From contig JASLKP010000001.1 of NCBI GenBank assembly GCA_030747485.1, positions 137,971-201,970 of the forward strand: 64,000 bases of DNA, in the 5' to 3' direction. A program made the translations under genes and the position numbers. The notes below the pieces were generated by a model. The model worked only from the letters and a program-made list of their open reading frames with translations, was not told the DNA's origin and ran no database searches. This document shows positions 13,840 through 63,072 of this stretch, one piece after another (the first letter of the stretch is position 1; every line of letters begins with the position of its first letter). Origin of the DNA: Candidatus Thalassarchaeaceae archaeon. Its GTDB lineage: Archaea; Thermoplasmatota; Poseidoniia; Poseidoniales; Thalassarchaeaceae.

Positions 13840-16800
13840 TCAGTACACTGGACTGATGGCCGGCGGGTTAAACGTTGCACCGTAGGTCATCAGGATGTAT
13901 GCACTGCCACCAGCTGGAGCGTACTGCAAGGTAATCGTTGCAGAGTCAATGCGCTCATCATCATTGGCAGGATCAGTCATGCGTACTTGGATGAAATCAC
14001 TAGCGCCAAATCCTGCAGAACAGTCTTGAGCACAGTTGATTGAATCCTTGTAAGTCACCAATGCATCGGGGCTGTTTGATGGAATACGGCCGTAGACACC
14101 ATCTGGGTTCGCCAGACTTGTCGTGTAACTTTGCATTTCACCTTCACCGTCCATCCATTCAACCTTGACGAACACTGCCTGAGCAGCCAACTCTTCACCG
14201 TCTAGGACGGCGATTCGCCAATACCAGAGACTTTCATCGCTGGTATGTTGGAATCGAGCTTCTTCATCGAAGGTCATTCGTGGTGTTGCCTTTCCTGTTG
14301 AGTCCTGTGCTAGGCTCTGTGCCCACACGTAGATGACACCAGAAAGTACCACAGTAATCGCAACGAGTAGAATCGTAGCGATCACAGGGCTAACTGCTTC
14401 ATCATCATCCGATAGAGCGGTGAACTCGGCCTCGTCATCATCCTGACGCGAACGCATCAAGAGAGCACCGACGAAGGCACCAACTAGGCTGACTGCAACC
14501 AAGCCTGGAGCGAAGCTCGAGACACTGAGTGCAGGTCGTAGCATTACCATTGATGGCAGACCATTGCCTGTGTCATCAGTGGTGACGTTGTTGTTACCCC
14601 AGTTCAACTCTTCAAGTGCTGATCGGCGGATTGAACTGTCAATGTAATCACCAGTGTGTGGGTTAATCGTGCGTACTTCAATGAACGCGCGAACATACTC
14701 AGACGGGTTATTGACAGTGACGTGTCCACGGATAGTCTTGGATTCGCCAATGCCAGGTACGTCGCCATTGTCCCAGCTCAGAGTGATCTGGTCCTGCATT
14801 AGTGTTGGGTTGTCATCGACGTAGAAGCGAACTTGTACATCGTGAGCATAGTTGTACTCTGCAGGGTCATCACCTAGGTTGGTAATGTCGATGTCAACTG
14901 GTACGCGGGTGCCCGGTAGGACAGCCTCGATGTTGAGCCAGTTGAAGTCGCCACCATCAGTGAACTGGTAGTCTGCTCGTGCTTCAGGCGTGTTGATTAC
15001 ACGGATGTAAATCGTCTCACGCACTGTGCGCTGTTCGTAGACACCGGATGGGCTCTGCGCATAGTCGATGTGACTTGGCGCGGTTGCCGTATCGTTCAAC
15101 CATAGGTAGACCGTACAGTATACACCACTAGGTGGCTGAATCTGGTGAACACCACCATCAGCTACACCATCTCCATCTGCGTCTTGCAAGAAGTCGATTT
15201 CAGATGTAGGTGCATCAGTTGCAGCGTCATCAATGAGATCCAACTCTAGCGTATCTGCTGCGTTATCAACAGTGATAGAGAAGTAGTTCTCATATGGACA
15301 TAGCTGAGTTTCCTCAACACTCCATGACAACTGCTCTAGTGGGTGGTCGTTGTCAGCCATTAGGCGACTTAGATCAAACGTTAGGTTTGTTGCATCTTCG
15401 TCGTCTTCCATGACATCCCAGAACCAATCCAACTGTAGTGATCCATTGCTGGTCTCAACATAGTCGCCTGCAACAGCATCGAAGGTTTCGATGACTGGTG
15501 CGTCGTTGACTGGGTTCACGATGAAGTTCACAGTAACATCTGCTGCTTCACTGTTCATGTTTGCTCCATCTGACAGACTCATGACGATGTCACAGTTACC
15601 ACCAGCCTCATTGGCGGTGTTCTCTGCAATCTCAATGACGTTCATTGTCACAGTAGTACTGAATGGTGTACAATCCAAGCCCTCATCCGCCATCCATGTG
15701 TATGTCTGTGGGATTGCTTCATTGTTCCAATCAGATTGGGTCTGCTCGTTTGCCATGTCTACAACATATGATAGAGACGCGTTTGACGTATCACCAAGTC
15801 CCTTTGTGATGAGACCATTGAAGTTCTCATCGTGGACGTTGAGGTTACCTGCACCGTCGTCGTAGAACACAGGCATACAATCGAAGCGTGCTGTGTTACA
15901 GATGATAGGTGGGTCATTGACGTTCCAAATACCGACGTTCATGGTCTGCATTGCCGTCATACCGTGACTGTCGATGACAGTCAAGACAAGTCGGTGACCA
16001 CCGAACTGATCCTGTAGTGTATCGATTGACAACGATGCGTCGTTCAATCCACCAGCAGTACCCGCGTTACCGTTCAGTGTGTACGAGTACGGTGTCGCGT
16101 AGGTGTGTGTGTTACCTGGATAGTCGGTTACGAACCAACTCAGTGAATCCGAGGTGTCTTGATGATCTGACGCCTTGTCATTCAGTGTGATGGTATGCGA
16201 ACCACTGTCCTCATCATATTCGACATCTACTAGGTTCTCAATCACTGGCTTCGCACGCAGGATGTCAATGGTGACATCTTGGTTCGTAGTCATGATTAGT
16301 GGTGCGTAGTCGCCCCAGTCGTAGTAGTCGCCTTCTGCGTTGTTGGTCTTCACCATAATCTGGTAGATGTGGGCGTTGCCCGGTGTGTTCGAACCAGTGT
16401 ATGTTCGGAAGATCAACAGATGGTCATCCAGAGTACCGTCAGCGAGGTCTCCTCCAACGAGGTTGAAGTTGCCCATCTCAGTGAAGGTTTGTCCACTGGT
16501 TGTTGACGGATCATAGGATTGCTCAGGGAACACTCCCGCAACTTGACCTGCCGAGCCGAAGCCAGGCACGCCATCCCACTGGGTCAGAGCGATCCAGCGG
16601 ACGTTGTGGGTTGGTGAACCAACGCAGTCCCATGGAATACGGAATTCACTCACTGGTGTCGATAGGTATGGGTTGCCCATGAACAGGTAAGCGTCTAGGC
16701 TTGTGCAACTCGAAGTTGTGTCGACCCAGTTACCTGTTGGCATGACCTTGCGGATACCCCAGTTGTTGAGGTCCTCCATCCATAGCATGTAATCTGCCTC

Positions 16801-27579: not shown

Positions 27580-27915
27580 ATACATACCCCAGTCTGTTGT
27601 ATGAACAGGCGTTCCCACGCTTTGTCGCTCATATAACCGTATGGGTGCAAACCGTTTGAATCGCCCATTCAGTTCGGTAAACTGCGCCGCATTTGATGAG
27701 GCATGAAATCGGGAAAAAATTACTAGTACAAACAATTTGTAACAAAATTTTCAAGAGGAAAAAAAAGGGAATTATTGGAGTGAAATTTCGAAATATCTCA
27801 GTGTATTTGACAGTGAAATCTGAATTAAGAACGCACTACAGAGCGGCTTTTTCCAAAGACCAGGGCATTTGATGATCATTTATGAGAGATTTTTGAACGG
27901 CAGGAAGTTGAAACG

Positions 27916-51986: not shown

Positions 51987-54764
51987 ATGAGTGAAGAAGA
52001 ATCCACATCAAATCCCACCGATAATCAGGTGCGCCATACAATCGATGACGAAATGCGAACATCGTATGGTAATTATGCCATGCAGGTCATTCTTGGCCGT
52101 GCCCTCCCCGATGTTCGAGATGGGCTGAAGCCAGTCCACCGACGAGTATTGTTTGGAATGCACGAAGCAGGTCATACTGCAGACAGGTCTTACTCCAAAT
52201 CAGCACGTTCAGTCGGTGAAGTCATGGGTAAATATCACCCTCACGGTGATGCTTCAATTTATGATACAATGGTGCGAATGGCGCAAGATTTCAGCCTCAG
52301 ATATCCATTGGTAGATGGGCAAGGAAATTTCGGTAGTATCGATGGTGACCCGCCTGCAGCCATGCGATATACTGAGAGTCGACTCGACCGGCTCGCAGGA
52401 CATATGCTTGAAGACATCAAGAAAAATACCGTTGACTTCCAACCGAATTTTGATGATTCAGAACAGGAACCTGAAGTCCTCCCTGCAAGACTACCCAACT
52501 TATTGTTGAATGGCAGCGATGGAATTGCAGTTGGGATGGCCACAAAAATCCCACCACATAATCTCAATGAAGTTGTAGATGCAATTAATCTCCATGTTGA
52601 ACGGATTCTAGAAGAAGGTGATGAAAATAAGAATCCCGATAGTGCACCAAATGTCAATGTCAGTGAATATATGGAACACATAAAGGGTCCAGATTTCCCC
52701 ACTGGTGCAACGATTCACGGAATTGACGGTATCATTGACATGTATGAAACTGGACACGGCAGATTCCATGTCCGCTCACAATGTGAAGTGTACGACGATT
52801 CAAATGGTAAGCGGATTATCATCACCGAAATTCCATGGCAAGTAAAGAAAGCCGCAATGCTAGAGAGTATTGCCGAAATGGTGAGTAAAGAAACGGTCAA
52901 GGGTATCCGTGATATTCGTGATGAATCGAGTAAAGATGTGCGAGTTGTTATCGAAATAAAGCAAAATGCAGATCCACATGCAGTGCTAAATCAATTGTTC
53001 AAATCTAGTAGACTCCAGGAATCATATTCTGCTAACATGATGGGGATTATCAATCATGAACCCGTATTACTGACACTCTCCAATATCATCCATACATACG
53101 TTCGACACCGCGAAAATGTCATTCAACGAAGAACACAATTTAATCTCGCTAAAGCAGAAGCTAGAGCACACATCCTAGAAGGATTGGTCAGAATGTCATC
53201 TCGTGTAGATGATGTTGTAACTGCCGGTAAAGGAAGCGATAGTAGGGAGCAATTTGAACAAATTCTCAGAGGTGAAATTAAATTTGAAAAATTGGCCAAA
53301 TTTGACTTCAGTGAACCACAAGCCAAGGCCATTGCAGAACGCAGACTATACCAATTAAGTCGCTTGGATACGAAAAAGGTCGAAGATGAACATAACGAAC
53401 TACAAATTTCGATTACTGAATACAAATCCATTTTGAGTAGCCGAAGGCGTCAGCTTGAAATCCTCATCGAAGAACTAAATGAAATGGTGGAAAAACATGG
53501 AGATGCACGTCGAACAGGCATTGACCCAATGCCTCTCTCAATGGATCGAGAAGATTTGGTTGAAGAGAGAGCGATTGTCATATCATTGTCTGAAGACAAT
53601 TACATTCGCCACCTACCTGTTGAGGTATTTAGAGTTCAGAACCGTGGAGGAAAGGGACTGAAAGGTGTAGCAACAAAGGATGAAGACTTCCCCAAATCAA
53701 TTCTAACATGCTTTAGTAAAGACAGATTACTCATCTTCACAGATCAAGGTCGCGTCTATGGACTCAAGGCATGGGAAACACCGCAAGGAAGCAGACACAG
53801 TAGAGGCAGTCACATCCGCAACCTATTGGAAGGACTTCGTGAAGATGAGAAGGTCGTCACAATCCTACCTATCTCAAAAGAAGTCCAAGAAAGTCCCGAG
53901 GGGCATTATCTCATATTTGCTACACACGAAGGTGTCGTAAAGAGATCCAAACTTGCCGATTATACTCGTATTAATCGAAATGGGAAATATGCTCTGAAAT
54001 TCAAGACTGAGACAGATACATTAGTTGCAGTTCGTGAAGCGACAGATGATGACCACGTTGTACTCGTATCCAAAAATGGAAGAGCATGTCGATTCATGCC
54101 TAGTGAAACAAAGGAGAATGCTGATGGCACAATTGGATTCACAGTGAAGGTACAAGGTCGAGTCACAGCAGGTGTCCGTGGAATGCGCCTCAAAGATGGC
54201 GATGCAGTTGTCGGCATGATTGCTACTTCCAATGAAGAAACTCATGTCCTCACCCTTTCCAAATTCGGTATGGCCAAGCGCAGTCGCCTCGGCGATGGTG
54301 CAATGCACGATGTTCTCGATGAAAATGGAGAGAATGTGTGGGATGACCGAGCTGGGAAAAACAAGCAAGAAAGAGACGGGTATCGCAAAACCAGTCGAGG
54401 AGCAGGTGGCGTGACTACAATGAAACTTGATGATGAACACGGCGATGAAATTGTTCGAGTACACACTATTCCCGATCTTGATGACCAATTGTTCCTACTC
54501 ACAGGTACTGGAATGATGATACGAGTTCGAGCCAATCAAACCAAAGAAACGACTGGGAAGGCTACGAAGGGGACTCGTGTAATGGAATTGAGAGACAAAG
54601 ACAAGGGTGGCTTTGTGGACGAGATTATTTTCTCAGCACGATTACCTGCAGTTCTTGTCGATGAAGAAGATGATTTTGATGCCATGGATACCAATCAAGA
54701 TGGTGTAATCGATCGTGAAGAGTTTGAAGCCGCGCAACAAAATGCGACTGATGATGAAGAGTGA
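51987..54764 (+). CDS. gyrA: DNA gyrase subunit A (with an acidic EF-hand-like C-terminal tail)
   Basis: Carries [33 protein letters not shown] and the catalytic AMRYTE motif, followed by GyrA C-terminal beta-pinwheel repeats. GAGGTGA lies 6 nt upstream of the ATG. Confidence 0.95.
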
Positions 54765-54906: not shown

Positions 54907-57900
54907 TTAGTCAAAGAACTCGTCAAAGTCATCTGCGAAATCATCCAAACCCATTTCTTCACGGCGGCGGCGTTGAATGGCTGCCTTTCGACGTGCCTTT
55001 CTCTTCTGGTCACGATATTTATTGATGAGCATCGGGACCAACAAGAGATTCATCAACAATACGCCAAAGGATACCATTGCTGCAAGTTGAAACTGTTCTG
55101 AATCGATGTCATCCAACAACTTCCCATACCATGGCGATGGGCCAATCAATGGTAATTCTGGTGGAGGTGGCGGAGGCGGAGGAGGGGGCTCCTGATGATA
55201 ATCCCAGTATTGATCTTCAATGATGACACCCTGTGCATTTCCACTTCGTACCAGATAATCGCTATTTCCAACAACATCGAATGGAATGAGTACATAGTAG
55301 TAATATCGTGACAAATGAATATCTTGATTCATGCCACCTTCGGTTTGATTAAACCAACTCATCTCACCTGGCTCACCGGTTAGACCAGTGGCAAGTGGTT
55401 CCATGTATCGAACACTGGTCACCGTTAGTTCGGCTCTATACATATTCCATGTGAGTGGACCTTGATCATCAATTTCTGGCCAAGTCCATGACAAATGGAC
55501 GGAGTGCAGTTGTGAGTTTGTGTTGTTATTGAATGTAATTTCAGAATCAAAATTGAGGACCTGTGACGTTGGAGGAAGGGCATCGACGCAAATTTCCTCG
55601 ACATCCATACGTTCTGTAATTTCATTCCAAGTTCCACGAGTCACATTCCCATGATGCCAATCCGTCACACCAGCGCGAGATGTTGAAAGAACAAGGTAAG
55701 ACAAACAAGTTCCTTGTTCCCAATAAGTTGGATCATCCCAAGATGTCGCACCCGGTGACAAATCGACTAACTCATACCCCATTGTGGCAGAATTGAATTG
55801 AGATTGGGACGTAAATGGATAAGCGAATAGTAAGTCAGTCTTACGATACAATCTCCACCCACCAAAGTATGGATTGTCAACATCACCGCCATTATCCCAA
55901 GCGACTGTAACTTGTCCGTCCTTCTTGAGGACAACATCGAGATTGTCAGGATTAACAACAATTGGTGGTAATTCGCCAATAATCATGAATGAACCTCCGA
56001 TGTCGCTAGAGATTGAGATAAATCCAGAACCATTGCTCTGCATTTCATAGGCATCACCGGTTTCAGAAAATTCAGTTAAATCAGTTGTATTCCAATCTGG
56101 AATTCGGAGAATTTCAATCGTACTCAAATTGATTGTATCAGGGAGCATCGCATCAATGTCTAGCCAAGCATCTAGTGTATCAACGTCGAAATCGCCACTC
56201 AATAATGGCAGCATTGAAAGATTAAACATCATCAAGGGCGCCTTATCCTTATTGAAGGCCGCAGGATACAATCGATTTGGTTGTGGTAATTGTGGTTCGT
56301 CCCAATGATATTCCATTGCATAAGTCGACACACCCAAACCCTCCAGAATATATGGAGCCTGCTCAAATTCAACTCTGTTCAAAATCCTCACTGGTTGAGT
56401 TGCAATCTCAACGTTACCAAATGCATCTTCTACGAATAGAGTCAATGTCCATTCACCCATTGGCAATGTAATGTTGGCAACTTGACCATACCCCAAAATA
56501 TCCAGATAATTCAATTTCCAAGTGAAATTCAATGGCATCGGAGAAAGTGGGTCTGTTCCAGCGACTGCTAGAATGGTTTCACCGGTTTCATATACTGCAT
56601 TGGCCAATGGATTGGCAACCACAGGTGCTGTCGTACCGTAATTGATGGTGATTGATTGTTCAAACCAATTGTCGGCAGGGAGGATATCGATGCCCCCATC
56701 AATGGGTGTGATGCTGACATTCATGACAAAATTACCAATGACATCAATATCAAAATCACAGCGAGATTCTTCTTCTGGTTGTAAGGTCACCTCACAGGTA
56801 TAGGGGCCTGCCGCAATATTACCACCAACGAGTTCATTCAGAAGCAATTCAACTCGGCTTGTTGTAGCCATGTACCCAATATTTCCTGGCACAATACGAA
56901 TCGAATCATCGCCGTATGGATATCGAACTAAAAATTCTCCATTATCCTCCACATAAGTGACTGGTCCGCGTGCAGGGACGACTTCGCGAATCCAAACATC
57001 AACGCTATCATTGAATACCATTGTGAATGATATTCGATCATTGTGAGGATTTGGATCGATGAAGGCATCACCAATTCCTGCTCGGATGAGATATTCACCT
57101 GGTTCAGGTGCTGTGATATTGGGGAGTGGGATGTATTGTGAACTAAACGTTCCAGAATAACCACTCACCATATGGGAATCACTTGCAACCACAATATCAG
57201 GTACTCGAACAAAGGCAGAAAAACAAATCGTTCCGTTGGCAAAATCTGTGAACAGGCGCTGACTATGAGGTGCACCATCTCCTGTGAAATTAAACCAATA
57301 AGAATACAATTCAGTGCCATTGAGAGTGGCAACGATTTCTACTGTATGTTCTGAATCAAATGCGGAACCAATTACATCAATATCTGCCAGGATTTCACCT
57401 GAATCATTTCCTACAGTAACGCTAACCTCGTATGGTGCACGATGAATTGTAAAGGACGAATCCATGTGAGTATAGGTGTGATTGATGATGGGACCATTCA
57501 TGTCATAATTTCCAGTGTAAAACATATCCCACTCTACACAATCATTTGCCTCTGCAACCAATGAGTCAATGAGGTGCATCGACCAATCAGTTGTGAATGA
57601 TTGATCAGGCATCCAAGAACGCCCTTGGACATCTAACGATGCCTCAATGGGAGTGGCGCTATTGAAAACATGCTGCGTGTCGACATTATGACCATTGACT
57701 ACCAAGTCCCGCAGTGGTTGATCGAAGGAAAATGTGTAAACGAGTTTGTCATCACTCGTATCGATGTCACCAGGAATCAATGTGAATATGATAGTATGAA
57801 CTCCTGGATTGGCAGGGTAGAAGTAGATATTGCTGAACTCAACATTAACCGATTCAAGTGGACCCAACGGTGGAATATTGGTTAGAGCCCATTCAGTGGC

Positions 57901-58230
57901 ACTTCCACTCGGACAACTTTGTTGGGATGTTCTGTCACCTTCACAAATTTCTACTTTGATTTGACGAGTATCTGTTCCAGTCATCAAATCGTTATTGATG
58001 GTGACTTTTGGGAAAATCATCTCATTGAAGTCATAATGGGCACCAGCCATCGGAATCACGCCCGAATCAATGGAAATATCTTCGGTTGCAGGTGATGCCG
58101 AAACTGTCCCTAATAGCCCTAACATCGAACTCAAAATGAGTAAAATCACAAGAGATGGTGCACTGATTAAACCAACTCGATTTGTGCGAATTGGACGCGC
58201 CCGTAGGGCGCGGCGAGAGGGACCCATCAA
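54907..58230 (-). CDS. Large (1,107 aa) secreted surface protein with a poly-proline stalk, a C-terminal TM anchor and a basic/acidic tail
   Basis: The N-terminus is MMGPSRRALRARPIRTNRVGLISAPSLVILLILSSMLGLLGTVSA. The C-terminus reads ...QEPPPPPPPPPPELP...AAMVSFGVLLMNLLLVPMLI-NKYRDQKRKARRK. The body is a long beta-rich ectodomain with many N-x-S/T sequons. Confidence 0.8.
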   Translation of the reverse strand: MMGPSRRALRARPIRTNRVGLISAPSLVILLILSSMLGLLGTVSASPATEDISIDSGVIPMAGAHYDFNEMIFPKVTINNDLMTGTDTRQIKVEICEGDRTSQQSCPSGSATEWALTNIPPLGPLESVNVEFSNIYFYPANPGVHTIIFTLIPGDIDTSDDKLVYTFSFDQPLRDLVVNGHNVDTQHVFNSATPIEASLDVQGRSWMPDQSFTTDWSMHLIDSLVAEANDCVEWDMFYTGNYDMNGPIINHTYTHMDSSFTIHRAPYEVSVTVGNDSGEILADIDVIGSAFDSEHTVEIVATLNGTELYSYWFNFTGDGAPHSQRLFTDFANGTICFSAFVRVPDIVVASDSHMVSGYSGTFSSQYIPLPNITAPEPGEYLIRAGIGDAFIDPNPHNDRISFTMVFNDSVDVWIREVVPARGPVTYVEDNGEFLVRYPYGDDSIRIVPGNIGYMATTSRVELLLNELVGGNIAAGPYTCEVTLQPEEESRCDFDIDVIGNFVMNVSITPIDGGIDILPADNWFEQSITINYGTTAPVVANPLANAVYETGETILAVAGTDPLSPMPLNFTWKLNYLDILGYGQVANITLPMGEWTLTLFVEDAFGNVEIATQPVRILNRVEFEQAPYILEGLGVSTYAMEYHWDEPQLPQPNRLYPAAFNKDKAPLMMFNLSMLPLLSGDFDVDTLDAWLDIDAMLPDTINLSTIEILRIPDWNTTDLTEFSETGDAYEMQSNGSGFISISSDIGGSFMIIGELPPIVVNPDNLDVVLKKDGQVTVAWDNGGDVDNPYFGGWRLYRKTDLLFAYPFTSQSQFNSATMGYELVDLSPGATSWDDPTYWEQGTCLSYLVLSTSRAGVTDWHHGNVTRGTWNEITERMDVEEICVDALPPTSQVLNFDSEITFNNNTNSQLHSVHLSWTWPEIDDQGPLTWNMYRAELTVTSVRYMEPLATGLTGEPGEMSWFNQTEGGMNQDIHLSRYYYYVLIPFDVVGNSDYLVRSGNAQGVIIEDQYWDYHQEPPPPPPPPPPELPLIGPSPWYGKLLDDIDSEQFQLAAMVSFGVLLMNLLLVPMLINKYRDQKRKARRKAAIQRRRREEMGLDDFADDFDEFFD
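58196..58212. repeat. GC-rich hairpin CGCGCCC-GTA-GGGCGCG (GTA-triloop family) inside the 5' end of the 54907..58230 ORF
   Basis: Perfect 7-bp stem read directly from the sequence. On the minus strand it encodes the RRALRAR part of the signal-peptide n-region. Confidence 0.7.
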
Positions 58231-58323
58231 AACGACGACGACAAACAGTCCGTAAATACCCCTCGGCGAAAAGGGAGGGTATCGCGCATATTATCCAATT
58301 ATGCGAATCAGGCCACAGTATTG

Positions 58324-59436
58324 ATGGATACCCAGTATTTGCGCTCATTCATGGCGGGGTTACTCGGAGCCAACAACTCGCCTGGAAAATGGCGTAGAGA
58401 AAAGTCAGATGAAGGTCTGACTGCCGTGATTGAATTCCTCTCAGCTTTCGTTCTATTTCTTGTAATTGTCAGTGCTTTCCTTGCATTGAGTCAACTGAAA
58501 CTTGGTAGCAATGTTGCAGATACCGATCGCCTCGACCAAATGGCCATTGATGGGTTGGAAAGATTGACTGATTCAAAGGGCCACATCGTCCTTCGAGAAG
58601 ATGGGGTTCGAAACCTCTCAAGCGCGACCGATGATTGGCATTTATTCAACGCGAGTACATTGCTTATTGGAGACCACCTCCCAGGACTTGGAGATGGGCA
58701 CGGACATATCGATGTAAATCGAGTCACAGCATTGTCAAATATCACTGAGGATCGACTCATCCACGGACTTGGCCTGAAAGTGTGGATGAGTTTGAATTTG
58801 ACTATCACCGTTGTGGAAAGTTCCGATGCTGAAAGAATTGGCGACGTGCTATTCGCTGATGGTTCATCCCGTAGTGAAGCAACCCGCGGATCTACTGCCA
58901 GTCGTCAGATGTACATGGGAGATGAACAAGTGCGTATTACTCTAGAAGTCCATGATGCAGGGAGAATCCCATCTGGAATGCGCATCACCGAGATGATGGT
59001 TGACCCAGAATTAGGTCCACCAGAATGGGTAGAAATTGAAAACCCAGGTGGATTTGCTGTCAACCTTTCAGGCTGGAGTCTTGCTCACCCTGGCGCATTC
59101 ACACTGATTGGTGATGGAGCCCTCTCAGGTGGGTCGAGAATCATTTGTACTGGTAACCCATCATTACAATACAATCCAACAAATGTACAGATGATCGATT
59201 TGAGTGCATCAGGCGTATTGGGAACTGGCGCCATCGATGCATTGTCAGTAAATGGGGACACCATTGACTTGAGTTGGACTGAACCTGGGACCGTCGATAC
59301 TCAAATTGTCATGCGTGTGACATGGGATAGTTCATGGGCGATTGAAAGTAATGCTTCTCTGACCTATGATTTGGTCGGATCTCCGCTAAGTGTCGACAGT
59401 TGGACATCAATGCCTGTTGGCACACCCGGCTGGTAA
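58324..59436 (+). CDS. Membrane-anchored protein with a prepilin-like N-terminal hydrophobic segment and a C-terminal lamin-tail domain (LTD)
   Basis: The N-terminus reads ...RREKSDEGLTAVIEFLSAFVLFLVIVSAFLAL: a charged region, a Gly, then a hydrophobic helix containing Glu. The LTD signature is ITEMMVDPELGPPEWVEIENPGGFAVNLSGWSL. The exact start is uncertain (TTG 58321, ATG 58324 or ATG 58351). Confidence 0.7.
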   Translation: MDTQYLRSFMAGLLGANNSPGKWRREKSDEGLTAVIEFLSAFVLFLVIVSAFLALSQLKLGSNVADTDRLDQMAIDGLERLTDSKGHIVLREDGVRNLSSATDDWHLFNASTLLIGDHLPGLGDGHGHIDVNRVTALSNITEDRLIHGLGLKVWMSLNLTITVVESSDAERIGDVLFADGSSRSEATRGSTASRQMYMGDEQVRITLEVHDAGRIPSGMRITEMMVDPELGPPEWVEIENPGGFAVNLSGWSLAHPGAFTLIGDGALSGGSRIICTGNPSLQYNPTNVQMIDLSASGVLGTGAIDALSVNGDTIDLSWTEPGTVDTQIVMRVTWDSSWAIESNASLTYDLVGSPLSVDSWTSMPVGTPGW

Positions 59437-59519
59437 AATTCACCGAACATGTGAATCGATTCGGTACTGTTCCAACCATCGGCTTATCTAAGGGCTGTCG
59501 AATCGGAGGGTCGTCCACC

Positions 59520-60281
59520 ATGATGCCTACGCCCCAATACGAACGCGACCGTTGTGTCACCGGCATCACCGGTCTCGACGAAATATTACGCGGAGGTATT
59601 CCCTATGGGTCCACCGTTTTGGTCGCAGGTACATGCGGATCAGGGAAGACTACACTCTGCATGGAGTTCTTGGTCAATGGCGCACGATCGGGCGAGGCCT
59701 GTGCACACTTCTCAGCCACGGAACCATCTGTCAAATTACTCGAAAACGTCAGACAATTCGATTTCTTCGATATGCGACTCGTCGATCAAGGACTCATCAA
59801 CGTCTTCGACATGGATGTATTGTTTTCATGGCTTGGAATGACCAAATCGACATTTGAATTGTCTGACATCGATGCAATGGTGAAATCAATCACAGATATT
59901 GTCAACACGATTGGAGTGACACGATTGGTAATCGATTCAGTCACAACGCTTTGTTACAAGATTCCGAGTGAACAACTCATTCGGGATTTCTTGTTCAAAC
60001 TTGGTAAGGCCCTATCCACCCTTGGCTGCACGGCTTTACTTGTCTCAGAGATTACATCATCTGGAGCCAAGGCATATTGGTCCTCTTTTGGCGTTGAGGA
60101 AGCGATTCTTGACGGTATTGTCGTCCTTGGAGATGTTGAAAGAATGGGACATTTGCTCAGATTTATTCAAGTTGTCAAGATGCGTGGGACGCAACACTCA
60201 CGTGCGAAATACGCATTTGAGTTGACACCAAAGGGTGTGATGCTCACGCCGATGCTAAAGTGGGGTGCAGTGAATGATTGA
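59520..60281 (+). CDS. Single-domain KaiC/RecA-superfamily ATPase (intact Walker A and B)
   Basis: TGITGLDEILRGGIPYGSTVLVAGTCGSGKTTLCMEFL carries Walker A, and RLVIDSVTTL is Walker B. The C-terminal motif is IQVVKMRGTQHS. The start is set at the ATG at 59520, because the track extension from 59400 overlaps the upstream gene. Confidence 0.85.
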   Translation: MMPTPQYERDRCVTGITGLDEILRGGIPYGSTVLVAGTCGSGKTTLCMEFLVNGARSGEACAHFSATEPSVKLLENVRQFDFFDMRLVDQGLINVFDMDVLFSWLGMTKSTFELSDIDAMVKSITDIVNTIGVTRLVIDSVTTLCYKIPSEQLIRDFLFKLGKALSTLGCTALLVSEITSSGAKAYWSSFGVEEAILDGIVVLGDVERMGHLLRFIQVVKMRGTQHSRAKYAFELTPKGVMLTPMLKWGAVND

Positions 60282-60861
60282 ATTGGACGGTAGCATCGCT
60301 CAACAACTTGCTGAGGAAGTTTCACCATCATCTGCCATCCAAGTTCGAGTGGGGACGAGTAACTCGTTCTTGGTCATCGCATCAATTCTACAACCGCTCC
60401 TGCAAGGATTTGGCATGCGGGGTGTGTATATTTGTGCATCAAAACCGGCTATGGAAATCATCCAGACCCTTGAGGAAATAGGCATCGATCCAGGACAAAT
60501 TCAATTCATTGACACAGTATCTAGTGGATTTATCGGTGGGACTGAAACCCCATATACAAACATCCAATATGTGGATAGCCCAATCATGCTAGAATCGATT
60601 ATGCTGCAGACGCTTTATCACCTTCAAGCCAATACTGAAACTGGGAGTTTTGTCATGCTAGACTCAGTCAATGCGCTCTCAATTTACAATGAAAAGAGAA
60701 TGCTGGCTGAATATCTCCACACGTTTGTGAACACCTTCCGCGCACGCGAGGTGCTAACGGCAATTGTGAATGTACCAGATCAAACTCCACCTGGTGTACT
60801 AGCCAACCTAGATTTGTACTGTACAGATTTAATTGACAGAGGACAGGTAGTCATCCATTGA
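60274..60861 (+). CDS. RecA-fold-like protein lacking a P-loop (degenerate KaiC-like paralogue)
   Basis: 195 aa. It overlaps the preceding gene by 8 nt (ATGATTGA). A Walker-B-like segment, SFVMLDSVNAL, is retained, but there is no GxxGxGK[ST]. The assignment rests only on pattern and context. Confidence 0.5.
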   Translation: MIELDGSIAQQLAEEVSPSSAIQVRVGTSNSFLVIASILQPLLQGFGMRGVYICASKPAMEIIQTLEEIGIDPGQIQFIDTVSSGFIGGTETPYTNIQYVDSPIMLESIMLQTLYHLQANTETGSFVMLDSVNALSIYNEKRMLAEYLHTFVNTFRAREVLTAIVNVPDQTPPGVLANLDLYCTDLIDRGQVVIH

Positions 60862-60873
60862 GGAGGTTAAGAT

Positions 60874-61695
60874 ATGACAACAACAGTTCAATTCGATGCT
60901 GACGATGAAGACTTCTATGGCGACATGGGAAGTATTGGTTCAGCTAAATTCGATGCCATTCTTACAGGGACACCCATGAATAAGGGGAGTATTCCACGTG
61001 GATTTACGATGCTAGCAATCGGAAATCAAGGAGCAGGTATGGATTTGTTTGGTAAACAATTTACATCTGTAGCCGAAGACCCTGAAAATACGTTACTCGT
61101 CTCCACCGTAGAGAGCCAAGCCGAGATTCTCTCGTTGTACAAACGCTATGATTGGCCCACCGACATCATGGTTAGAACAGTTGGTGAAGAATACAACAAA
61201 CAGGTTCTCGAACGTGAACTACGTGCGAGCAAATATCGATTAGAAGGATTCTCAATGGCTGACATCCAGCGATTGGCGCAAACTCGATTCGTAGACAATG
61301 ATGTTCACGACTACCTGACTGATTTAACCAGCCAAGTCACGGGATTACCCCCCTACTTCCGAGCCACAATCGACAATCTAGACTTCTTCTTCGCTCGAAA
61401 TGATCCCTCGCGTGTCATTTCGATGCTGCGAATGATGCAAGCACACACTCAACTCAACCGCGGCATGATGGTTCTCAATGTCTCAAGTGACATGGTGGAC
61501 AAATCAATTGAACGGGAATTGTATTCTATTTGCGATATCGTGTTAGAGTTTGAAGTTGGTATGCTTGGAACGGATTTCGAAACGAGAATGGTGATTCGAA
61601 AATTCCGAAATGGACCAGAAAATCTCCGTGCCATCAGCTTCCGCGTAACAAAAGAAGAAGCCATCACTCCAGAGACAGTGGACCGTATCGCTTGA
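60874..61695 (+). CDS. KaiC-like protein with a degenerate Walker A (predicted pseudo-ATPase)
   Basis: GSIPRGFTMLAIGNQGAGMDLFGKQF aligns to the KaiC consensus GGIPxGxxxLxxGxxGxGKTxFxxQF, but with GK[ST] replaced by GMD. The C-terminal MVIRKFRNGPENL corresponds to the KMRG motif. GGAGGT lies 7 nt upstream of the ATG. Confidence 0.7.
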   Translation: MTTTVQFDADDEDFYGDMGSIGSAKFDAILTGTPMNKGSIPRGFTMLAIGNQGAGMDLFGKQFTSVAEDPENTLLVSTVESQAEILSLYKRYDWPTDIMVRTVGEEYNKQVLERELRASKYRLEGFSMADIQRLAQTRFVDNDVHDYLTDLTSQVTGLPPYFRATIDNLDFFFARNDPSRVISMLRMMQAHTQLNRGMMVLNVSSDMVDKSIERELYSICDIVLEFEVGMLGTDFETRMVIRKFRNGPENLRAISFRVTKEEAITPETVDRIA

Positions 61696-61697
61696 TT

Positions 61698-62714
61698 TCA
61701 AGCGAGCAAACTAAACTGCTCAAGTGCCCATGTGATTGGGTCACCAAGAAGTATAAACGGCAAAATAGCTGGAAATACAAAGAGAAGGAATGGATATTTT
61801 GCAGTCACCCATGCCTTTTCACAACCTTCTGCTGCCAATTCATCAATCACAGCAGCAACATCAGTTTCCGCTCGACTTCCACGGAGAGGACGCATTCGCC
61901 TCATCACACCACGAGTCCCATCGGGCCGATCAACCATTTCTTCCAAAAGCCAAACATGGTTGTTAGGAATCTCTGCAAGTGGCATACGAAAAGCATGCCA
62001 TGACATCTCAAGAGGGAATGCGTCTCCTGCTTTGAGGTTGCGAATGAACATGATGAAAGGAAGAACAAGGAATGCTAACCCCGCCCAAATCATCAGAGAT
62101 AATGCTGGAGGCATTGCAGTGAAATGTACATCCACCAGTAATGGAACAGGTGCACCATTCCATGAAGGAATCAATAGTGCTGCAAGCATCATTGCTTTGG
62201 CATCTGCACCCCCGTGTAACATTCGAAATCGCCAAGCCATTTCGAAGAATAGCAAAACAACACCGATTAACAACATCTGACCCCACAAGAGGGCCATGCG
62301 TTCGGCTTCAGGATCCAACAATAACCCGGCATCGACACTGAAGTAATCGACGAGTACTGGGCCATGAACAAACGCACCCATCCCCAATCCCACAGCACTG
62401 GCAAGATACCAGATTGTTACGGCAATGTCGATACGTGAACCACGGAGTAAATCCCCTAAATCAGGACGTCCGATGAGTGCAGTTGAGGCAAACGACAATG
62501 CTGCCGAGGCAGTCAACCAAACCATCCAATCAGCCTCAAGGACAAGCAATTCCAAACACAACAAGAAGATGGTTGGTTTTGCCCATGACCACCACCAATC
62601 ATTGGAGACTCGGCGGGTCTTGTGATCTAGCCATGCTGCGCCACCGAAACACAGGATGAGGACAGCGATTCTGGTCCATCCAATGAGTTCGAGAGGTGTG
62701 GTCCCGTCCAGCAT
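61698..62714 (-). CDS. A24-family aspartic prepilin/preflagellin peptidase (FlaK/PibD-like)
   Basis: Polytopic membrane protein. The first catalytic Asp context is AWLDHKTRRVSND and the second is LHGGADAKAMMLAALL, which fits the GxGD/GGADxK motif. A FlaK-like extra soluble segment lies near the C-terminus. Confidence 0.8.
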   Translation of the reverse strand: MLDGTTPLELIGWTRIAVLILCFGGAAWLDHKTRRVSNDWWWSWAKPTIFLLCLELLVLEADWMVWLTASAALSFASTALIGRPDLGDLLRGSRIDIAVTIWYLASAVGLGMGAFVHGPVLVDYFSVDAGLLLDPEAERMALLWGQMLLIGVVLLFFEMAWRFRMLHGGADAKAMMLAALLIPSWNGAPVPLLVDVHFTAMPPALSLMIWAGLAFLVLPFIMFIRNLKAGDAFPLEMSWHAFRMPLAEIPNNHVWLLEEMVDRPDGTRGVMRRMRPLRGSRAETDVAAVIDELAAEGCEKAWVTAKYPFLLFVFPAILPFILLGDPITWALEQFSLLA

Positions 62715-62796
62715 GTTATCAAGGCGTGTACAGGAAATCGCCTTAAAGCAAGCCCTGCCCCCGAACGCTGAGAACTCATGTTCAGGGTGTGTTTAG

Positions 62797-63072
62797 ATGA
62801 CTGCGGAGATAGAAGCACGAATAGAACAGATTGCTTCGGTAATCGAACAATTAGATGATCCAAAGGTACCCCGGAATATCCGAAAAGGTGCCAAGGATAC
62901 GGTGGAAAACTGGTTGAAGAATAAGAACAAACAACTCGATGTCCGAATCTCAATCACTCAAGCCAATTTGGAAGAACTTTACGAAGATCCAAACATTCCA
63001 ATGGAATTCGGTACATTGATTCTACAAATCAATACCGCACTTGAGCAGATGCTTACTGAGTTGCTTTCCTGA
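62797..63072 (+). CDS. UPF0147-family small archaeal protein
   Basis: 91 aa, with DDPKVPRNIRKGAKDTVENW...LYEDPNIPMEFGTLILQINTALE. This matches the UPF0147 pattern (sVPRNiR ... DPNmP) as I recall it. Confidence 0.65.
   Translation: MTAEIEARIEQIASVIEQLDDPKVPRNIRKGAKDTVENWLKNKNKQLDVRISITQANLEELYEDPNIPMEFGTLILQINTALEQMLTELLS

What the first reader, a model, noticed from the sequence alone, without database searches (positions are those of the whole stretch)
58321..62714. Candidate undescribed module: prepilin-like LTD protein, one active and two degenerate KaiC/RecA-like proteins, and a convergent A24 prepilin peptidase
Four plus-strand genes are tightly coupled: a gap of 83 nt or an overlap at the first junction, an 8-nt overlap at the second, and a 12-nt gap containing GGAGGT at the third. 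The first protein has a charged N-terminus, Gly, then a hydrophobic helix with a Glu (KSDEG-LTAVIEFLSAFVLFLVIV). This recalls class III/prepilin signals, and its ectodomain ends in a lamin-tail domain. The next three proteins are RecA-superfamily paralogues. Only the first keeps Walker A (GTCGSGKT). The third has GAGMD in place of GxGK[ST], and the second has no P-loop at all. An A24 aspartic peptidase ends 2 nt after the operon on the other strand. The window contains no FlaI/PilB-type secretion ATPase, FlaJ/PilC platform or canonical pilin/archaellin genes, so this is not a standard archaellum or type IV pilus locus. KaiC-like ATPases are established as FlaH/ArlH in the archaellum motor and have been proposed as signalling hubs in archaea. 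A heteromeric KaiC-like ring with one catalytic and two regulatory subunits, coupled to a processed surface LTD protein, would be a new arrangement. It might control display or assembly of the surrounding giant surface proteins.
Basis: partly seen in the sequence, partly recalled or inferred. Interest (0 to 1): 0.75.

Follow-up and report, generated by a model that had tools for sequence, protein, structure and literature searches.

The report
Conserved KaiC-trio surface module in MGII archaea
This is a real gene module, found here only in the abundant ocean archaea Poseidoniales (Marine Group II), that links three clock-protein-like ATPase relatives (one active, two dead) to pilin-like and membrane-anchored surface proteins; it appears undescribed and its function is untested.

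Summary
Four coupled plus-strand genes encode an LTD protein, an intact KaiC-like ATPase (K1) and two degenerate relatives (K2, K3). A divergent A24 peptidase ends 2 nt downstream on the other strand.

The contig is from Ca. Thalassarchaeaceae (MGIIb). In 80 species-representative Poseidoniales loci:
- K1-K2-K3 are always contiguous, and the LTD gene is adjacent in 50/50 evaluable loci.
- A divergently transcribed ~1,000-aa surface protein is present in 24/28.
- A canonical archaeal pilin is adjacent in 28/57.
- The A24 peptidase is present in 14/46, in two different arrangements.
- No PilB/ArlI-type ATPase lies within 10 kb of any locus.

The LTD protein has an invariant E-x-(G/A)|(L/M)TAV(I/V)EF N-terminus. 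It resembles the cleavage context of the co-encoded pilins but matches no pilin profile or fold. K3 lacks the Walker A lysine in every orthologue.

The surface protein's cytoplasmic C-terminus and K3's N-terminus share a conserved acidic-FF motif.

My best reading is a lineage-specific surface complex of class-III-signal proteins, with a cytoplasmic KaiC-like hetero-oligomer acting as an ATP-dependent regulator, as ArlH does in the archaellum. This is a new variant of a known kind, and the mechanism is inferred, not shown.

The parts
54907..58227 (-). ~1,106-aa surface protein ('big'). It has a Sec-type signal peptide, 17 N-x-S/T sequons, a poly-Pro stalk, one C-terminal TM helix with conserved Asn and Pro, a basic stretch, and the conserved acidic-FF C-terminus (DDFADDFDEFFD).
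   Evidence: ORF. It has no Pfam, NCBIfam or PDB-sequence match. An orthologue is present in 24/28 evaluable loci and is always divergent from the LTD gene, including the rearranged loci L072, L081, L085 and L088. The C-terminal architecture and the (D/E)F..(D/E)FF(D/E) end are conserved in about 40 distinct orthologues at only 26-50% overall identity.
58228..58323 (.). Divergent intergenic region shared by the surface-protein gene and the LTD gene; presumed promoter region.
   Evidence: Sequence read. The divergent pairing of the two genes is kept in every arrangement seen. Promoter function was not tested.
58324..59436 (+). LTD protein. It has a variable cytoplasmic leader, an E-x-(G/A)|(L/M/I/V)TAV(I/V)EFLSAF class-III-signal-like hydrophobic helix, an alpha/beta domain of unknown fold, and a C-terminal lamin-tail (Ig-like) domain.
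   Evidence: - (A1): T33, A34, V35, E37, F38, L39, F42, L44, F45 and L46 are invariant.
- position -1 is G or A in 104/105 sequences, and position -3 is E or D in 104/105.
- The AF2 model has pLDDT 84.5, with helices 25-59 and 65-83 followed by beta-rich domains.
- Foldseek matches the lamin Ig fold with probability 1.0, and the Hfx. volcanii pilin 8fj5 only at E=0.14.
- Full-length relatives form only about 12 clusters at 50% identity among 1.84 billion representatives. All eight clusters checked that carry names are Poseidoniales or unclassified Euryarchaeota MAGs.
59520..60281 (+). K1: single-domain KaiC-like ATPase with intact Walker A (GTCGSGKT), a catalytic-position Glu (ATEPS) and Walker B (LVIDS).
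   Evidence: - Pfam KaiC 5.6e-56.
- PDB sequence matches: KaiC 6.6e-48, PH0284 1.8e-34, PH0186 5e-34.
- 78-96% identical across the order.
- Adjacent to K2 in 71/71 evaluable loci.
60274..60861 (+). K2: 195-aa degenerate RecA/KaiC-like protein. It has no P-loop, Lys replaces the catalytic Glu (ICASKPA), and a Walker-B-like FVMLDSVNAL is retained.
   Evidence: - Pfam KaiC 23.4 bits, below the gathering score.
- 15 of 20 orthologues hit KaiC at E<0.01, and 6 of 20 hit DUF7090.
- There is no PDB sequence hit, and profile-profile comparison with K1 and K3 is not significant.
- Motif order and spacing match K1.
- 62-87% identical across the order.
- Adjacent to K3 in 75/76 evaluable loci.
60874..61695 (+). 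K3: 273-aa KaiC-like pseudo-ATPase. GNQGAGMD replaces GxxGxGK(T/S), and the N-terminal extension carries the acidic-FF motif FDADDEDFYG.
   Evidence: - Pfam KaiC 29.8 bits, above the gathering score, plus DUF7125.
- The profile hits SSO2452 at 5e-12 and KaiC at about 1e-10.
- Profile-profile comparison with K1 gives probability 85%.
- The P-loop Lys is absent in all 96 orthologues.
- The N-terminal FDxxD(E/V)(E/D)(F/Y)(F/Y)G is conserved in about 69 distinct N-termini.
- 309 GTDB species representatives encode a relative.
61698..62714 (-). Divergent A24-type (GxGD) aspartyl prepilin peptidase with at least 6 TM segments and an archaeal type II C-terminal domain.
   Evidence: - Pfam Arc_PepC_II 26.7 bits, below the gathering score of 29.9. 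There is no Peptidase_A24 hit.
- NCBIfam FlaK 20.7 bits against a cut-off of 330.
- LHGGADAK is invariant, and the first Asp sits in the LDHKTRRVSN context.
- The gene is linked to the module in 14/46 evaluable loci, in two arrangements: convergent after K3, or directly upstream of the LTD gene on the same strand.
62797..63072 (+). UPF0147 small protein, a divergent partner of the A24 gene.
   Evidence: Pfam UPF0147 1.9e-16. It travels with the A24 gene in both arrangements. Its function is unknown, and its membership of the module is uncertain.
13840..14400 (-). Canonical archaeal type IV pilin domain (DDDEA|VSPVIATILLVAITVV...), fused in frame to the C-terminal TM anchor of the 4631-aa ORF. 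It is a probable second A24 substrate in this genome.
   Evidence: Pfam Pilin_N 43.4 bits. The translation shows no stop codon, and there is no SD before the internal ATG. It is only distantly related (about 30% identity) to the roughly 165-aa pilins encoded next to K1-K3 in sister lineages.

Best explanation
This is a cell-surface module seen here only in Poseidoniales, with a membrane/extracellular half and a cytoplasmic half.

Membrane and extracellular half:
- A Sec-exported, probably glycosylated surface protein of about 1,100 aa. It is held by a C-terminal TM helix and exposes a short cytoplasmic tail ending in a conserved acidic-FF peptide.
- The LTD protein. Its N-terminus behaves like a class III (type IV pilin-like) signal peptide: a variable leader, E-x-(G/A), then an invariant Glu-containing helix.
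- In many sister lineages, a canonical ~165-aa pilin as well.

Inferred steps:
1. The A24 peptidase removes the leaders of the LTD protein and the pilin at the cytoplasmic face.
2. The mature proteins then stay anchored or are assembled at the surface, next to the large surface protein.

Cytoplasmic half: three KaiC-family proteins made from one translationally coupled operon.
- K1 can bind and hydrolyse ATP.
- K2 and K3 are conserved pseudo-ATPases.

I infer that the three form a hetero-oligomer. It would dock to the membrane components through the acidic-FF motif, which is present both on the surface protein's tail and on K3's own N-terminus. It would then act as an ATP- or phosphorylation-dependent switch controlling assembly, anchoring or signalling of the surface complex. 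This is the role ArlH plays beside ArlI/ArlJ in the archaellum.

Any filament assembly would need an ArlI/ArlJ- or PilB/PilC-type machine encoded elsewhere in the genome.

Shown: gene content, conservation, synteny, motif states, topology.
Inferred: cleavage, hetero-oligomer, docking, regulatory role.
For: Synteny:
- K1-K2-K3 are contiguous in 71-75 of 71-76 evaluable loci.
- The LTD gene is adjacent in 50/50, the surface protein is present in 24/28, a pilin is adjacent in 28/57 and A24 is present in 14/46.
- These links survive at least five different gene arrangements.

Coupling: an 8-nt overlap and SD-containing short gaps join the genes.

Class III signal reading:
- E-x-(G/A) precedes an invariant TAV(I/V)EF helix in 104/105 homologues.
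- Pfam-verified pilins of the same module have the same context, (E/D)-x-A|VSPVIAT.
- The leader is unconserved and the helix invariant.
- AF2 predicts a long N-terminal helix followed by globular domains.

Peptidase: both catalytic Asp motifs are present.

KaiC trio:
- K1 is a bona fide KaiC-like ATPase under extreme constraint, 78-96% identical across the order.
- K3 has lost the P-loop Lys in every orthologue, yet keeps 50 invariant columns.
- K2 is 62-87% identical across the order with degenerate motifs.

Topology: K1-K3 are soluble, and each membrane protein has one TM helix.

Docking motif: the acidic-FF motif is conserved on both the surface-protein tail and the K3 N-terminus.

Precedent: KaiC-family ATPases are already known to sit in archaeal T4P and archaellum loci as predicted regulators (PMC4858521).
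Against: - No experiment or co-folding supports the hetero-oligomer or the tail docking.
- The acidic-FF resemblance could be convergent low-complexity sequence.
- The LTD N-terminus hits no Pilin_N, Flp or TadE profile. Its fold matches no pilin significantly: E=0.14 for the full model, and nothing for the N-terminal half.
- Position -2 is K or R in only 30/105 homologues, unlike classical archaeal class III sites.
- A24 is absent from the neighbourhood in most loci, and no A24 hit was seen in the Poseidoniaceae loci.
- K2's RecA-fold assignment rests on sub-threshold Pfam hits and motif spacing.
- In one clade (L043-L060) no surface-protein orthologue is found nearby.
Confidence: 0.45

Rival explanations
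1. This is an ordinary split type IV pilus or archaellum system. The module would be an accessory pilin set (LTD minor pilin or adhesin, a small major pilin, a partner surface protein) plus KaiC-type regulators. A canonical ArlI/ArlJ or PilB/PilC machine encoded elsewhere would do all the assembly. Nothing mechanistically new would be involved.
For: - Archaeal pilin sets are often encoded apart from the ATPase/TadC module, and KaiC-family genes are frequent in T4P and archaellum loci (PMC4858521).
- A canonical Pilin_N pilin is adjacent in 28/57 loci.
- JGI already labels K2 orthologues as FlaH.
Against: - The module appears order-wide: 309 species representatives encode a K3 relative. By contrast, half of the Thalassarchaeaceae genera are reported to lack the archaellum operon. 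Co-occurrence in the same genomes was not tested.
- No secretion ATPase lies within 10 kb in any of about 85 loci.
- A fixed trio with two pseudo-ATPases and a tail-motif surface protein is not part of any T4P model described in PMC4858521.
- K1 and K3 score far below the ArlH equivalog cut-off, at 34-37 bits against 215.
Confidence: 0.3
2. The LTD protein is a plain type II signal-anchor surface protein that is never cleaved, and the KaiC trio is a general signalling or clock-like unit. The peptidase sits nearby only because of local gene order and serves archaellins or pilins elsewhere.
For: - There is no pilin-profile or pilin-fold match for the LTD protein.
- A24 is absent from the locus in 32/46 evaluable genomes.
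- The invariant TM helix could reflect intramembrane contacts, for example with the conserved Asn/Pro TM helix of the surface protein, rather than peptidase recognition.
Against: - A24 is found next to the module in two unrelated arrangements, once directly upstream of the LTD gene on the same strand.
- A bona fide pilin is inserted into or beside the K operon in three arrangements.
- The small residue at -1 and the acidic residue at -3 are conserved in 104/105 homologues while the leader is free to vary.
Confidence: 0.15
3. This is an autonomous, non-canonical assembly or retraction engine. The K1/K2/K3 RecA-fold ring would replace the PilB/ArlI secretion ATPase. Through the TM helices and the cytoplasmic tail, it would drive insertion, extrusion or turnover of the pilin, the LTD protein and the surface protein. 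A DNA-uptake variant, with a DNA-binding LTD, belongs to the same family of ideas.
For: - Pilin, a pilin-like protein, peptidase and ATPase-fold proteins co-localise without any PilB/PilC gene in cis in about 85 loci.
- K1 is constrained to an unusual degree.
- From general knowledge: RecA-fold hexamers such as DnaB, RadA/Sms and KaiC are mechanically competent motors, and LTD domains occur in bacterial competence and nuclease-associated membrane proteins.
Against: - The module contains no polytopic platform or channel protein.
- Two of the three subunits cannot hydrolyse ATP.
- No precedent exists.
- The pilin is missing from the neighbourhood in the window's own clade and in the Poseidoniaceae loci.
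Confidence: 0.08
4. The K trio is a RadA/RadB-type recombination-mediator set, like the Rad55-Rad57 or Rad51 paralogue complexes. Its adjacency to surface-protein genes would be fortuitous.
For: - The proteins are RecA-superfamily folds, with weak hits to RadA, RadB and Rad51 paralogues.
- Heteromers with degenerate ATPase subunits are typical of Rad51 paralogues (general knowledge).
Against: - The best matches are KaiC and PH0284 by 25 to 40 orders of magnitude over RadA or RecA.
- The LTD gene is adjacent in 50/50 evaluable loci and follows the operon through rearrangements.
- No DNA-repair genes are conserved nearby.
Confidence: 0.03

Closest known systems
ArlH (FlaH), the KaiC-like protein of the archaellum motor
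   Same: Both are single-domain KaiC-family proteins. Both are encoded next to monotopic proteins with an N-terminal TM helix and a beta-sandwich ectodomain (ArlF/ArlG there, the LTD protein here). ArlH sits under the membrane and modulates a surface-filament machine through nucleotide binding and autophosphorylation (general knowledge). K3 and K1 give weak ArlH hits, and K2 orthologues are annotated as FlaH by JGI.
   Different: The scores are far below the ArlH equivalog cut-off, at 34-37 bits against 215. No arlI, arlJ or archaellin gene is nearby. There are three paralogues instead of one, and two of them are catalytically dead.
KaiC-family ATPases and their inactivated paralogues as predicted regulators of archaeal type IV pili and as signalling hubs
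   Same: KaiC-like genes are embedded in loci with class III signal peptide proteins and a prepilin peptidase. Inactivated ATPase paralogues co-occur with active ones. Sources are Makarova et al. 2016 (PMC4858521, read) and Makarova, Galperin and Koonin 2017 in mBio, which I cite from memory because the paper was not held.
   Different: Those loci normally include the VirB11-type ATPase and TadC. The fixed K1-K2-K3 trio, the LTD protein family and the surface protein with the tail motif are not among the ten T4P models described there. Poseidoniales are not mentioned in that paper.
Archaeal class III signal peptide proteins that are not filament subunits (for example the Sulfolobus bindosome sugar-binding proteins) and modular pilins carrying grafted domains
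   Same: These are large globular ectodomains attached to a pilin-like N-terminal helix with a small residue at -1. They are processed by a PibD/FlaK-type A24 peptidase (PMC4858521; general knowledge).
   Different: The LTD protein's helix motif, (L/M)TAV(I/V)EFLSAF with Glu at +6, fits no existing profile. Position -2 is usually not K or R. Cleavage is untested.
Cyanobacterial KaiC
   Same: K1 shares the RecA-like fold, Walker A and B, and a catalytic Glu region. KaiC is the best PDB sequence match, at 6.6e-48.
   Different: K1 has a single domain of 253 aa, where KaiC has a CI-CII tandem. Its NCBIfam KaiC score is 144 bits against a cut-off of 408. No KaiA or KaiB gene is in the neighbourhood.
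Rad51/RadA FxxA polymerisation motif and its mimicry by BRCA2 BRC repeats; Rad51-paralogue heteromers
   Same: This is an analogy only. A short aromatic motif N-terminal to a RecA-fold core (K3's (F/Y)(F/Y)G) is also carried by a partner protein (the surface protein's tail). Such heteromers contain degenerate ATPase subunits (general knowledge).
   Different: The motif sequence is different (acidic-FF, not FxxA). No DNA-repair context exists here, and binding is untested.

Membership tests
KaiC/RecA-superfamily ATPase (Pfam PF06745) | Profile score above the Pfam gathering threshold (26.6 bits) | tested here: met
   K1 scores 189.9 bits and K3 29.8 bits. K2 scores only 23.4 bits, so it is inconclusive; 15/20 K2 orthologues hit at E<0.01.
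KaiC/RecA-superfamily ATPase (Pfam PF06745) | Walker A GxxGxGK(T/S) with the catalytic Lys | tested here: not met
   Met for K1 only, where GTCGSGKT is invariant. K3 has GxGx(D/E) in all 96 orthologues. K2 has no P-loop. K2 and K3 are therefore pseudo-ATPases, not active members.
KaiC/RecA-superfamily ATPase (Pfam PF06745) | Walker B hhhhD and a catalytic Glu after strand beta2 | tested here: met
   K1 has ATEPS and LVIDS. K3 has STVES and ATIDN. K2 has ICASKPA (Glu lost) and FVMLDS (Asp kept). The motif spacing in K1 and K2 is 71 and 73 residues.
ArlH/FlaH (archaellum) | NCBIfam ArlH equivalog score of at least 215 bits | tested here: not met
   K1 scores 34.5 bits, K3 scores 37.1 bits and K2 gives no hit.
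ArlH/FlaH (archaellum) | Encoded in an arl operon next to arlI and arlJ | tested here: not met
   The window has no T2SSE, T2SSF or archaellin domains. No xTGSGKTT-type Walker A was found within 10 kb in about 85 loci. The neighbours are housekeeping genes.
Cyanobacterial KaiC clock protein | Tandem CI-CII domains, an equivalog score of at least 408 bits, and KaiB/KaiA partners | tested here: not met
   K1 is a single domain of 253 aa scoring 143.9 bits. No KaiA or KaiB gene is in any locus.
Archaeal type IV pilin / class III signal peptide protein | Match to the Pilin_N profile (PF07790) or a related profile (Flp, TadE) | tested here: not met
   The LTD N-terminus gives no hit even at E up to 10. 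The positive controls do hit: the L047 pilin scores 35 bits and the window's fused pilin 43 bits.
Archaeal type IV pilin / class III signal peptide protein | Short charged leader, a small residue (G/A) at -1, then about 20 hydrophobic residues | tested here: met
   G or A at -1 in 104/105 homologues, E or D at -3 in 104/105, and one TM-like segment at residues 35-53. Position -2 is K or R in only 30/105.
Archaeal type IV pilin / class III signal peptide protein | Pilin fold: an extended N-terminal helix packed on a beta-sheet domain | tested here: inconclusive
   AF2 predicts helices 25-59 and 65-83 followed by an alpha/beta domain. Foldseek finds the Hfx. volcanii pilin 8fj5 at E=0.14 only. 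The N-terminal-half model has no significant match.
Archaeal type IV pilin / class III signal peptide protein | Leader removed by an A24 peptidase | not testable with these tools
   This needs co-expression and N-terminal mass spectrometry.
A24 (GxGD) prepilin peptidase | Two catalytic Asp residues: one in the first TM region (D-x-[KR]-x-x-x-[VI]-[PS]-[ND]) and one in GxGD(A/V)K | tested here: met
   LDHKTRRVSN contains D30. LHGGADAK contains D171 and is invariant in 20 orthologues.
A24 (GxGD) prepilin peptidase | Profile match above threshold (Pfam Peptidase_A24, Arc_PepC_II, or NCBIfam FlaK) | tested here: not met
   Arc_PepC_II scores 26.7 bits against a gathering score of 29.9. There is no PF01478 hit. 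FlaK scores 20.7 bits against 330. This is a divergent member at best.
Complete type IV pilus / archaellum machinery | A secretion ATPase (PF00437) and a polytopic platform protein (PF00482) in the locus | tested here: not met
   Neither is present in the 64-kb window, in the remaining 1.2 kb of the contig, in 10 kb downstream in the sister genome L020, or in about 85 loci by Walker A scan. The rest of the genome was not searched.
Lamin-tail domain (PF00932) | Profile match and an Ig-like lamin fold | tested here: met
   The window protein scores 32.6 bits, just under the gathering score of 34.3. Most homologues carry a precomputed PF00932 hit. Foldseek matches lamin A/C Ig-fold structures with probability 0.96-1.0.

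The most novel reading that the evidence does not exclude
The K1/K2/K3 KaiC-fold hetero-oligomer would itself be the cytoplasmic engine of a non-canonical type IV pilin-based surface system that works without a PilB/ArlI ATPase or a PilC/ArlJ platform. It would engage the membrane components through acidic-FF peptides and the Glu- and Asn-containing TM helices. Through them it would drive assembly, turnover or signalling of a Poseidoniales-specific envelope structure, possibly the main cell-surface layer of these uncultured archaea.
Probability: 0.1. Interest if true: 0.9.

Novelty: new variant of a known kind. Interest (0 to 1): 0.6.

Why it matters
Poseidoniales (MGII) are the most abundant planktonic archaea in the surface ocean and have no cultured representative (PMC6461757). 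Their cell envelope and surface appendages are known only from gene lists.

This module appears order-wide and is under strong constraint. K1 is as conserved as a housekeeping enzyme, while the ectodomains evolve fast. It is therefore probably central to how these cells build or control their surface. That bears on particle attachment, virus and grazer recognition, and cell-cell contact.

For archaeal cell biology, the module offers a compact test case for the proposed role of KaiC-like ATPases and their dead paralogues as signalling or assembly hubs. Its predictions can be tested in a heterologous system:
- A cleavage site on the LTD protein.
- A three-subunit complex of K1, K2 and K3.
- A short docking peptide on the surface protein's tail.

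If the trio turned out to be the motor itself, it would be a new kind of pilin-handling machine.

Tried and rejected
- **Anti-phage defence:** a PADLOC scan of all six proteins gave only a trivial P-loop hit for K1. Rejected.
- **Surface protein identity:** there are no Pfam or NCBIfam families and no PDB sequence relative.
- **Pilin fold for the LTD protein:** the full model and a separate N-terminal-half model gave no significant pilin match. The best N-terminal-half hits were ribosomal uS3-like at E about 0.04, which I treat as noise.
- **Flp/TadE/Pilin_N profiles on the LTD N-terminus:** nothing, even at E up to 10.
- **K2 homology:** profile-profile comparisons (A3 against A4 and A2) and a PDB profile search were not significant. 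The RecA-like assignment rests on sub-threshold Pfam hits and motif order.
- **Relatives outside Poseidoniales:** the K3, LTD and K2 word-based searches were saturated by Poseidoniales. The exhaustive HMMER search with the LTD profile found only LTD-repeat giants and fragments beyond about 12 full-length clusters. For K1-K3, absence outside the order is not proven.
- **Literature:** no paper combines Poseidoniales with KaiC, and none mentions DUF7125, DUF7090 or DUF7504. The 2017 KaiC-hub paper is not held. The supplements of Rinke et al. give no per-genome archaellum table.
- **Archaellum or pilus operon just outside the window:** the contig ends 1.2 kb after the window, with UPF0147, asparaginase and MFS genes. 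The sister genome L020 shows MFS, LonB, a tRNA methyltransferase and a surface protein over the next 10 kb. Rejected for the local neighbourhood, but still open for the rest of the genome.

Full report
**1. Observation**

I read the junctions directly from the sequence:
- The LTD gene stops at 59436.
- K1 starts at ATG 59520, behind GGAGGG.
- K1 and K2 overlap by 8 nt.
- K2 and K3 are 12 nt apart, with GGAGGT in the gap.
- The K3 stop and the stop of the minus-strand peptidase gene are 2 nt apart.

Orthologue alignments show K1 conserved only from MxPxxxY(T/E)RDRC onward. The 83-nt gap is therefore the real first junction, not the TTG-59400 overlap.

Pfam gives the following:
- LTD domain: 32.6 bits, just below the gathering score.
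- K1: KaiC at 5.6e-56.
- K3: KaiC at 29.8 bits, above the 26.6 threshold.
- K2: KaiC at 23.4 bits, below it.
- Peptidase: only the archaeal A24 C-terminal type II domain, below threshold.

The rest of the window has no secretion ATPase, platform protein or archaellin. That domain is fused to the C-terminus of the 4631-aa ORF.

**2. Source and local context**

Exact-match look-ups place the window on a 97-kb JGI metagenome contig that ends 1.2 kb after the window. The genes downstream are UPF0147, an asparaginase and an MFS transporter. Named homologues are Candidatus Thalassarchaeaceae (MGIIb) and, further out, Poseidoniaceae (MGIIa).

In a sister genome with 82-96% identical module proteins (L020), the next 10 kb encode MFS, LonB, a tRNA methyltransferase and another surface protein. 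No archaellum or pilus operon lies immediately outside the window.

**3. Synteny**

A K3-profile scan of one genome per GTDB species found 309 loci encoding a relative. I analysed the best 80, all Poseidoniales apart from two evidently mis-binned contigs. I used tblastn with the window's proteins and a pilin-motif scan.

| Feature | Count in evaluable loci |
|---|---|
| K2 next to K3 | 75/76 |
| K1 next to K2 | 71/71 |
| LTD gene adjacent | 50/50 |
| ~1,000-aa surface protein present | 24/28 |
| Canonical ~165-aa pilin adjacent | 28/57 |
| A24 peptidase present | 14/46 |

The surface protein is always transcribed divergently from the LTD gene. The pilin is Pfam Pilin_N above threshold.

At least five arrangements exist:
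- (A) The window's clade: big<>LTD-K1-K2-K3, followed by a convergent A24 with UPF0147.
- (B) big<>LTD-K1-K2-K3-pilin.
- (C) UPF0147<>A24-LTD-K1-K2-K3-pilin.
- (D) pilin<>K1-K2-K3, then LTD<>big on the far side.
- (E) Poseidoniaceae: big<>LTD-K1-K2-K3, with neither pilin nor A24 within 10 kb.

The [big<>LTD] pair and the K operon stay together through all of these, and a pilin and a prepilin peptidase join them repeatedly in different positions. That is strong neighbourhood evidence for a functional unit tied to class III signal-peptide biology.

No PilB/ArlI-type Walker A occurs within 10 kb in any locus. The flanks are housekeeping genes: EPSP synthase, MoaA, the A-type ATPase operon, haem A synthase and gyrase.

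**4. The LTD protein**

An alignment of 31 homologues (38-95% identity) shows a leader that varies in length and sequence, followed by an invariant block: T33, A34, V35, E37, F38, L39, F42, L44, F45 and L46. Over 105 homologues, position -1 is G (64) or A (40) and position -3 is E (94) or D (10). Position -2 is free, and is R or K in only 30.

The Pfam-verified pilins of the same module are preceded by (E/D)-x-A|VSPVIAT. The LTD protein therefore shares a similar lineage-specific cleavage context.

AF2 (pLDDT 84.5) predicts a long N-terminal helix (25-59, continuing 65-83), an alpha/beta domain and a C-terminal Ig-like domain. The Ig-like domain matches lamin A/C structures with probability about 1.0.

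The pilin test is otherwise negative or inconclusive:
- There is no Pilin_N, Flp or TadE profile hit.
- Foldseek matches the Hfx. volcanii pilin only at E=0.14.
- A separate model of the N-terminal half (pLDDT 87.5) matches nothing significantly.

An exhaustive HMMER search of 1.84 billion representatives finds only about 12 full-length clusters. Everything else is a fragment or a multi-LTD giant protein. Where those clusters are named, they are Poseidoniales. The N-terminal two-thirds of the protein is thus a lineage-specific invention.

**5. The three KaiC-like proteins**

K1 is a textbook single-domain KaiC-like ATPase:
- Its PDB sequence matches are KaiC 6.6e-48, PH0284 1.8e-34 and PH0186 5e-34.
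- Walker A, the ATEPS glutamate and Walker B are all invariant.
- It is 78-96% identical across the order.

K3 is KaiC-like but catalytically dead:
- Its profile hits SSO2452 at 5e-12, and profile-profile comparison with K1 gives 85% probability.
- GxGx(D/E) replaces GxGK(S/T) in all 96 full-length orthologues.
- It still has 50 invariant columns.

K2 has the weakest assignment:
- It has no P-loop.
- Lys sits where the catalytic Glu should be.
- Walker-B-like FVxLDSVNAL is retained at K1-like spacing.
- 15/20 orthologues hit Pfam KaiC at E<0.01.
- Profile-profile and PDB searches are not significant.

None of the three reaches the ArlH or KaiC equivalog cut-offs. All three are soluble. The "one active, two degenerate" description stands. 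The heteromeric ring remains an inference from operon coupling and co-conservation.

**6. The peptidase**

The 338-aa protein has at least 6 TM segments and both GxGD-protease motifs. LDHKTRRVSN carries the first Asp, and LHGGADAK is invariant. It scores below threshold on every curated model. I treat it as a divergent A24 peptidase. It always travels with UPF0147.

**7. The surface protein and the acidic-FF motif**

The 1,106-aa protein has these features:
- a Sec-type signal peptide
- 17 N-glycosylation sequons
- a Pro-rich stalk
- a single C-terminal TM helix with conserved Asn and Pro
- a basic stretch
- a C-terminus ending in DDFADDFDEFFD

Overall identity across the order is only 26-50%. 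Even so, the tail architecture and the terminal (D/E)F..(D/E)FF(D/E) are kept in about 40 distinct orthologues.

K3 carries a conserved N-terminal extension, FDxxD(E/V)(E/D)(F/Y)(F/Y)G, just before its RecA core. In Poseidonia, for example, the surface protein ends in NEFDDFFE and K3 begins with ...EDEEFFG.

I read this as a shared short linear motif that could dock to the same pocket on a K subunit. The analogy is the Rad51/RadA FxxA polymerisation motif and its BRC mimic (general knowledge). This is inference only.

**8. Mechanism proposed**

Shown: composition, conservation, motif states and topology.

Inferred:
1. A24 cleaves the LTD protein, and the pilin where present, after E-x-(G/A).
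2. The mature proteins and the large surface protein form a surface assembly. The conserved Glu in the LTD helix and Asn in the surface protein's helix may contact each other in the membrane.
3. K1, K2 and K3 form a cytoplasmic hetero-oligomer recruited through acidic-FF peptides.
4. ATP turnover or autophosphorylation by K1 switches assembly or signalling, as ArlH does for the archaellum.

Any filament assembly would need an ATPase and platform encoded elsewhere. I could not search whole genomes, so the split-T4P rival and the autonomous-engine reading cannot be separated here.

Rinke et al. report an archaellum operon in all MGIIa genera but only half of the MGIIb genera, while this module looks order-wide. 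That hints at independence from the archaellum but does not prove it.

**9. Comparison with known systems and novelty**

KaiC-family genes in archaeal T4P and archaellum loci are already described as likely regulators (PMC4858521). The same holds for inactivated KaiC paralogues (Makarova 2017, cited from memory). ArlH is the characterised example.

Several features were not found in the literature I could search:
- the fixed trio with two pseudo-ATPases
- the lineage-specific LTD protein with a class-III-like signal
- the obligatory partner surface protein with a conserved cytoplasmic tail motif
- the absence of any assembly ATPase in cis
- the restriction to Poseidoniales

I rate this a new variant of a known kind, with interest 0.6. 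The module is real, ecologically important and gives testable predictions, but the function is inferred.

**10. Limits**
- The 80 analysed loci are the best-scoring of 309 and over-represent Thalassarchaeaceae.
- Absence of K1-K3 orthologues outside the order was not established.
- K2's fold was not modelled.
- The surface protein was not modelled.
- No multimer prediction was possible.

Noticed in passing
window 13840-27735 (-), especially 13840-14480: The 4631-aa ORF ends with a TM anchor, a 22-aa acidic loop (RSRQDDDEAEFTALSDDDEA) and then a complete canonical archaeal pilin (VSPVIATILLVAITVV..., Pilin_N 43 bits). The pilin is in frame, with no stop and no SD before the internal ATG. The topology fits a giant surface protein-prepilin polyprotein that an A24 peptidase could split at DDDEA|VSPV. 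Cleavage would leave the giant protein with a short acidic tail.
   Followed up: partly
window 61698-63072; L043-L060: The A24 peptidase gene and the UPF0147 gene form a divergent pair. The pair stays together whether it sits downstream of K3 or upstream of the LTD gene, which suggests UPF0147 is functionally tied to the peptidase.
   Followed up: partly
window 54907-54950 and 60874-60925; about 40 related loci: The cytoplasmic C-terminus of the 1,106-aa surface protein, (D/E)F..(D/E)FF(D/E), and the N-terminus of K3, FDxxDE(E/D)(F/Y)(F/Y)G, carry the same conserved acidic-FF motif across the order.
   Followed up: partly
window 28000-31251 (-): A 1083-aa protein with no Pfam match also ends with a TM helix followed by RGGGGEGEDKEWDY. 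This is another acidic/aromatic cytoplasmic tail on a large surface protein.
   Followed up: no
L028-L061 (downstream of K3); L072, L081, L083, L085, L088 (upstream of K1): A conserved ~165-aa Pilin_N pilin family is encoded immediately beside the K1-K3 operon in many Thalassarchaeaceae lineages. It is absent from that position in the window's own clade and in the Poseidoniaceae loci.
   Followed up: yes
window 51987-54764 (+); L006 12048-14411: GyrA carries a C-terminal EF-hand. In a Poseidoniaceae locus the A-type ATPase subunit I also carries EF-hands. These are unusual Ca-binding additions to housekeeping proteins.
   Followed up: no
window 10357-12960 (-): An extracellular solute-binding protein is fused to an ABC permease domain in a single 867-aa ORF, within a starch/maltodextrin utilisation cluster (amylase with cupredoxin and CBM domains, glucanotransferase, phosphorylase).
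   Followed up: no
L076 and L088: Two module-bearing contigs are filed under bacterial MAGs (Verrucomicrobiales, Yoonia). Their module proteins are close to those of the Poseidonia loci (K3 match 59-60% to the query, like its neighbours in the list), so they look like binning contamination.
   Followed up: no
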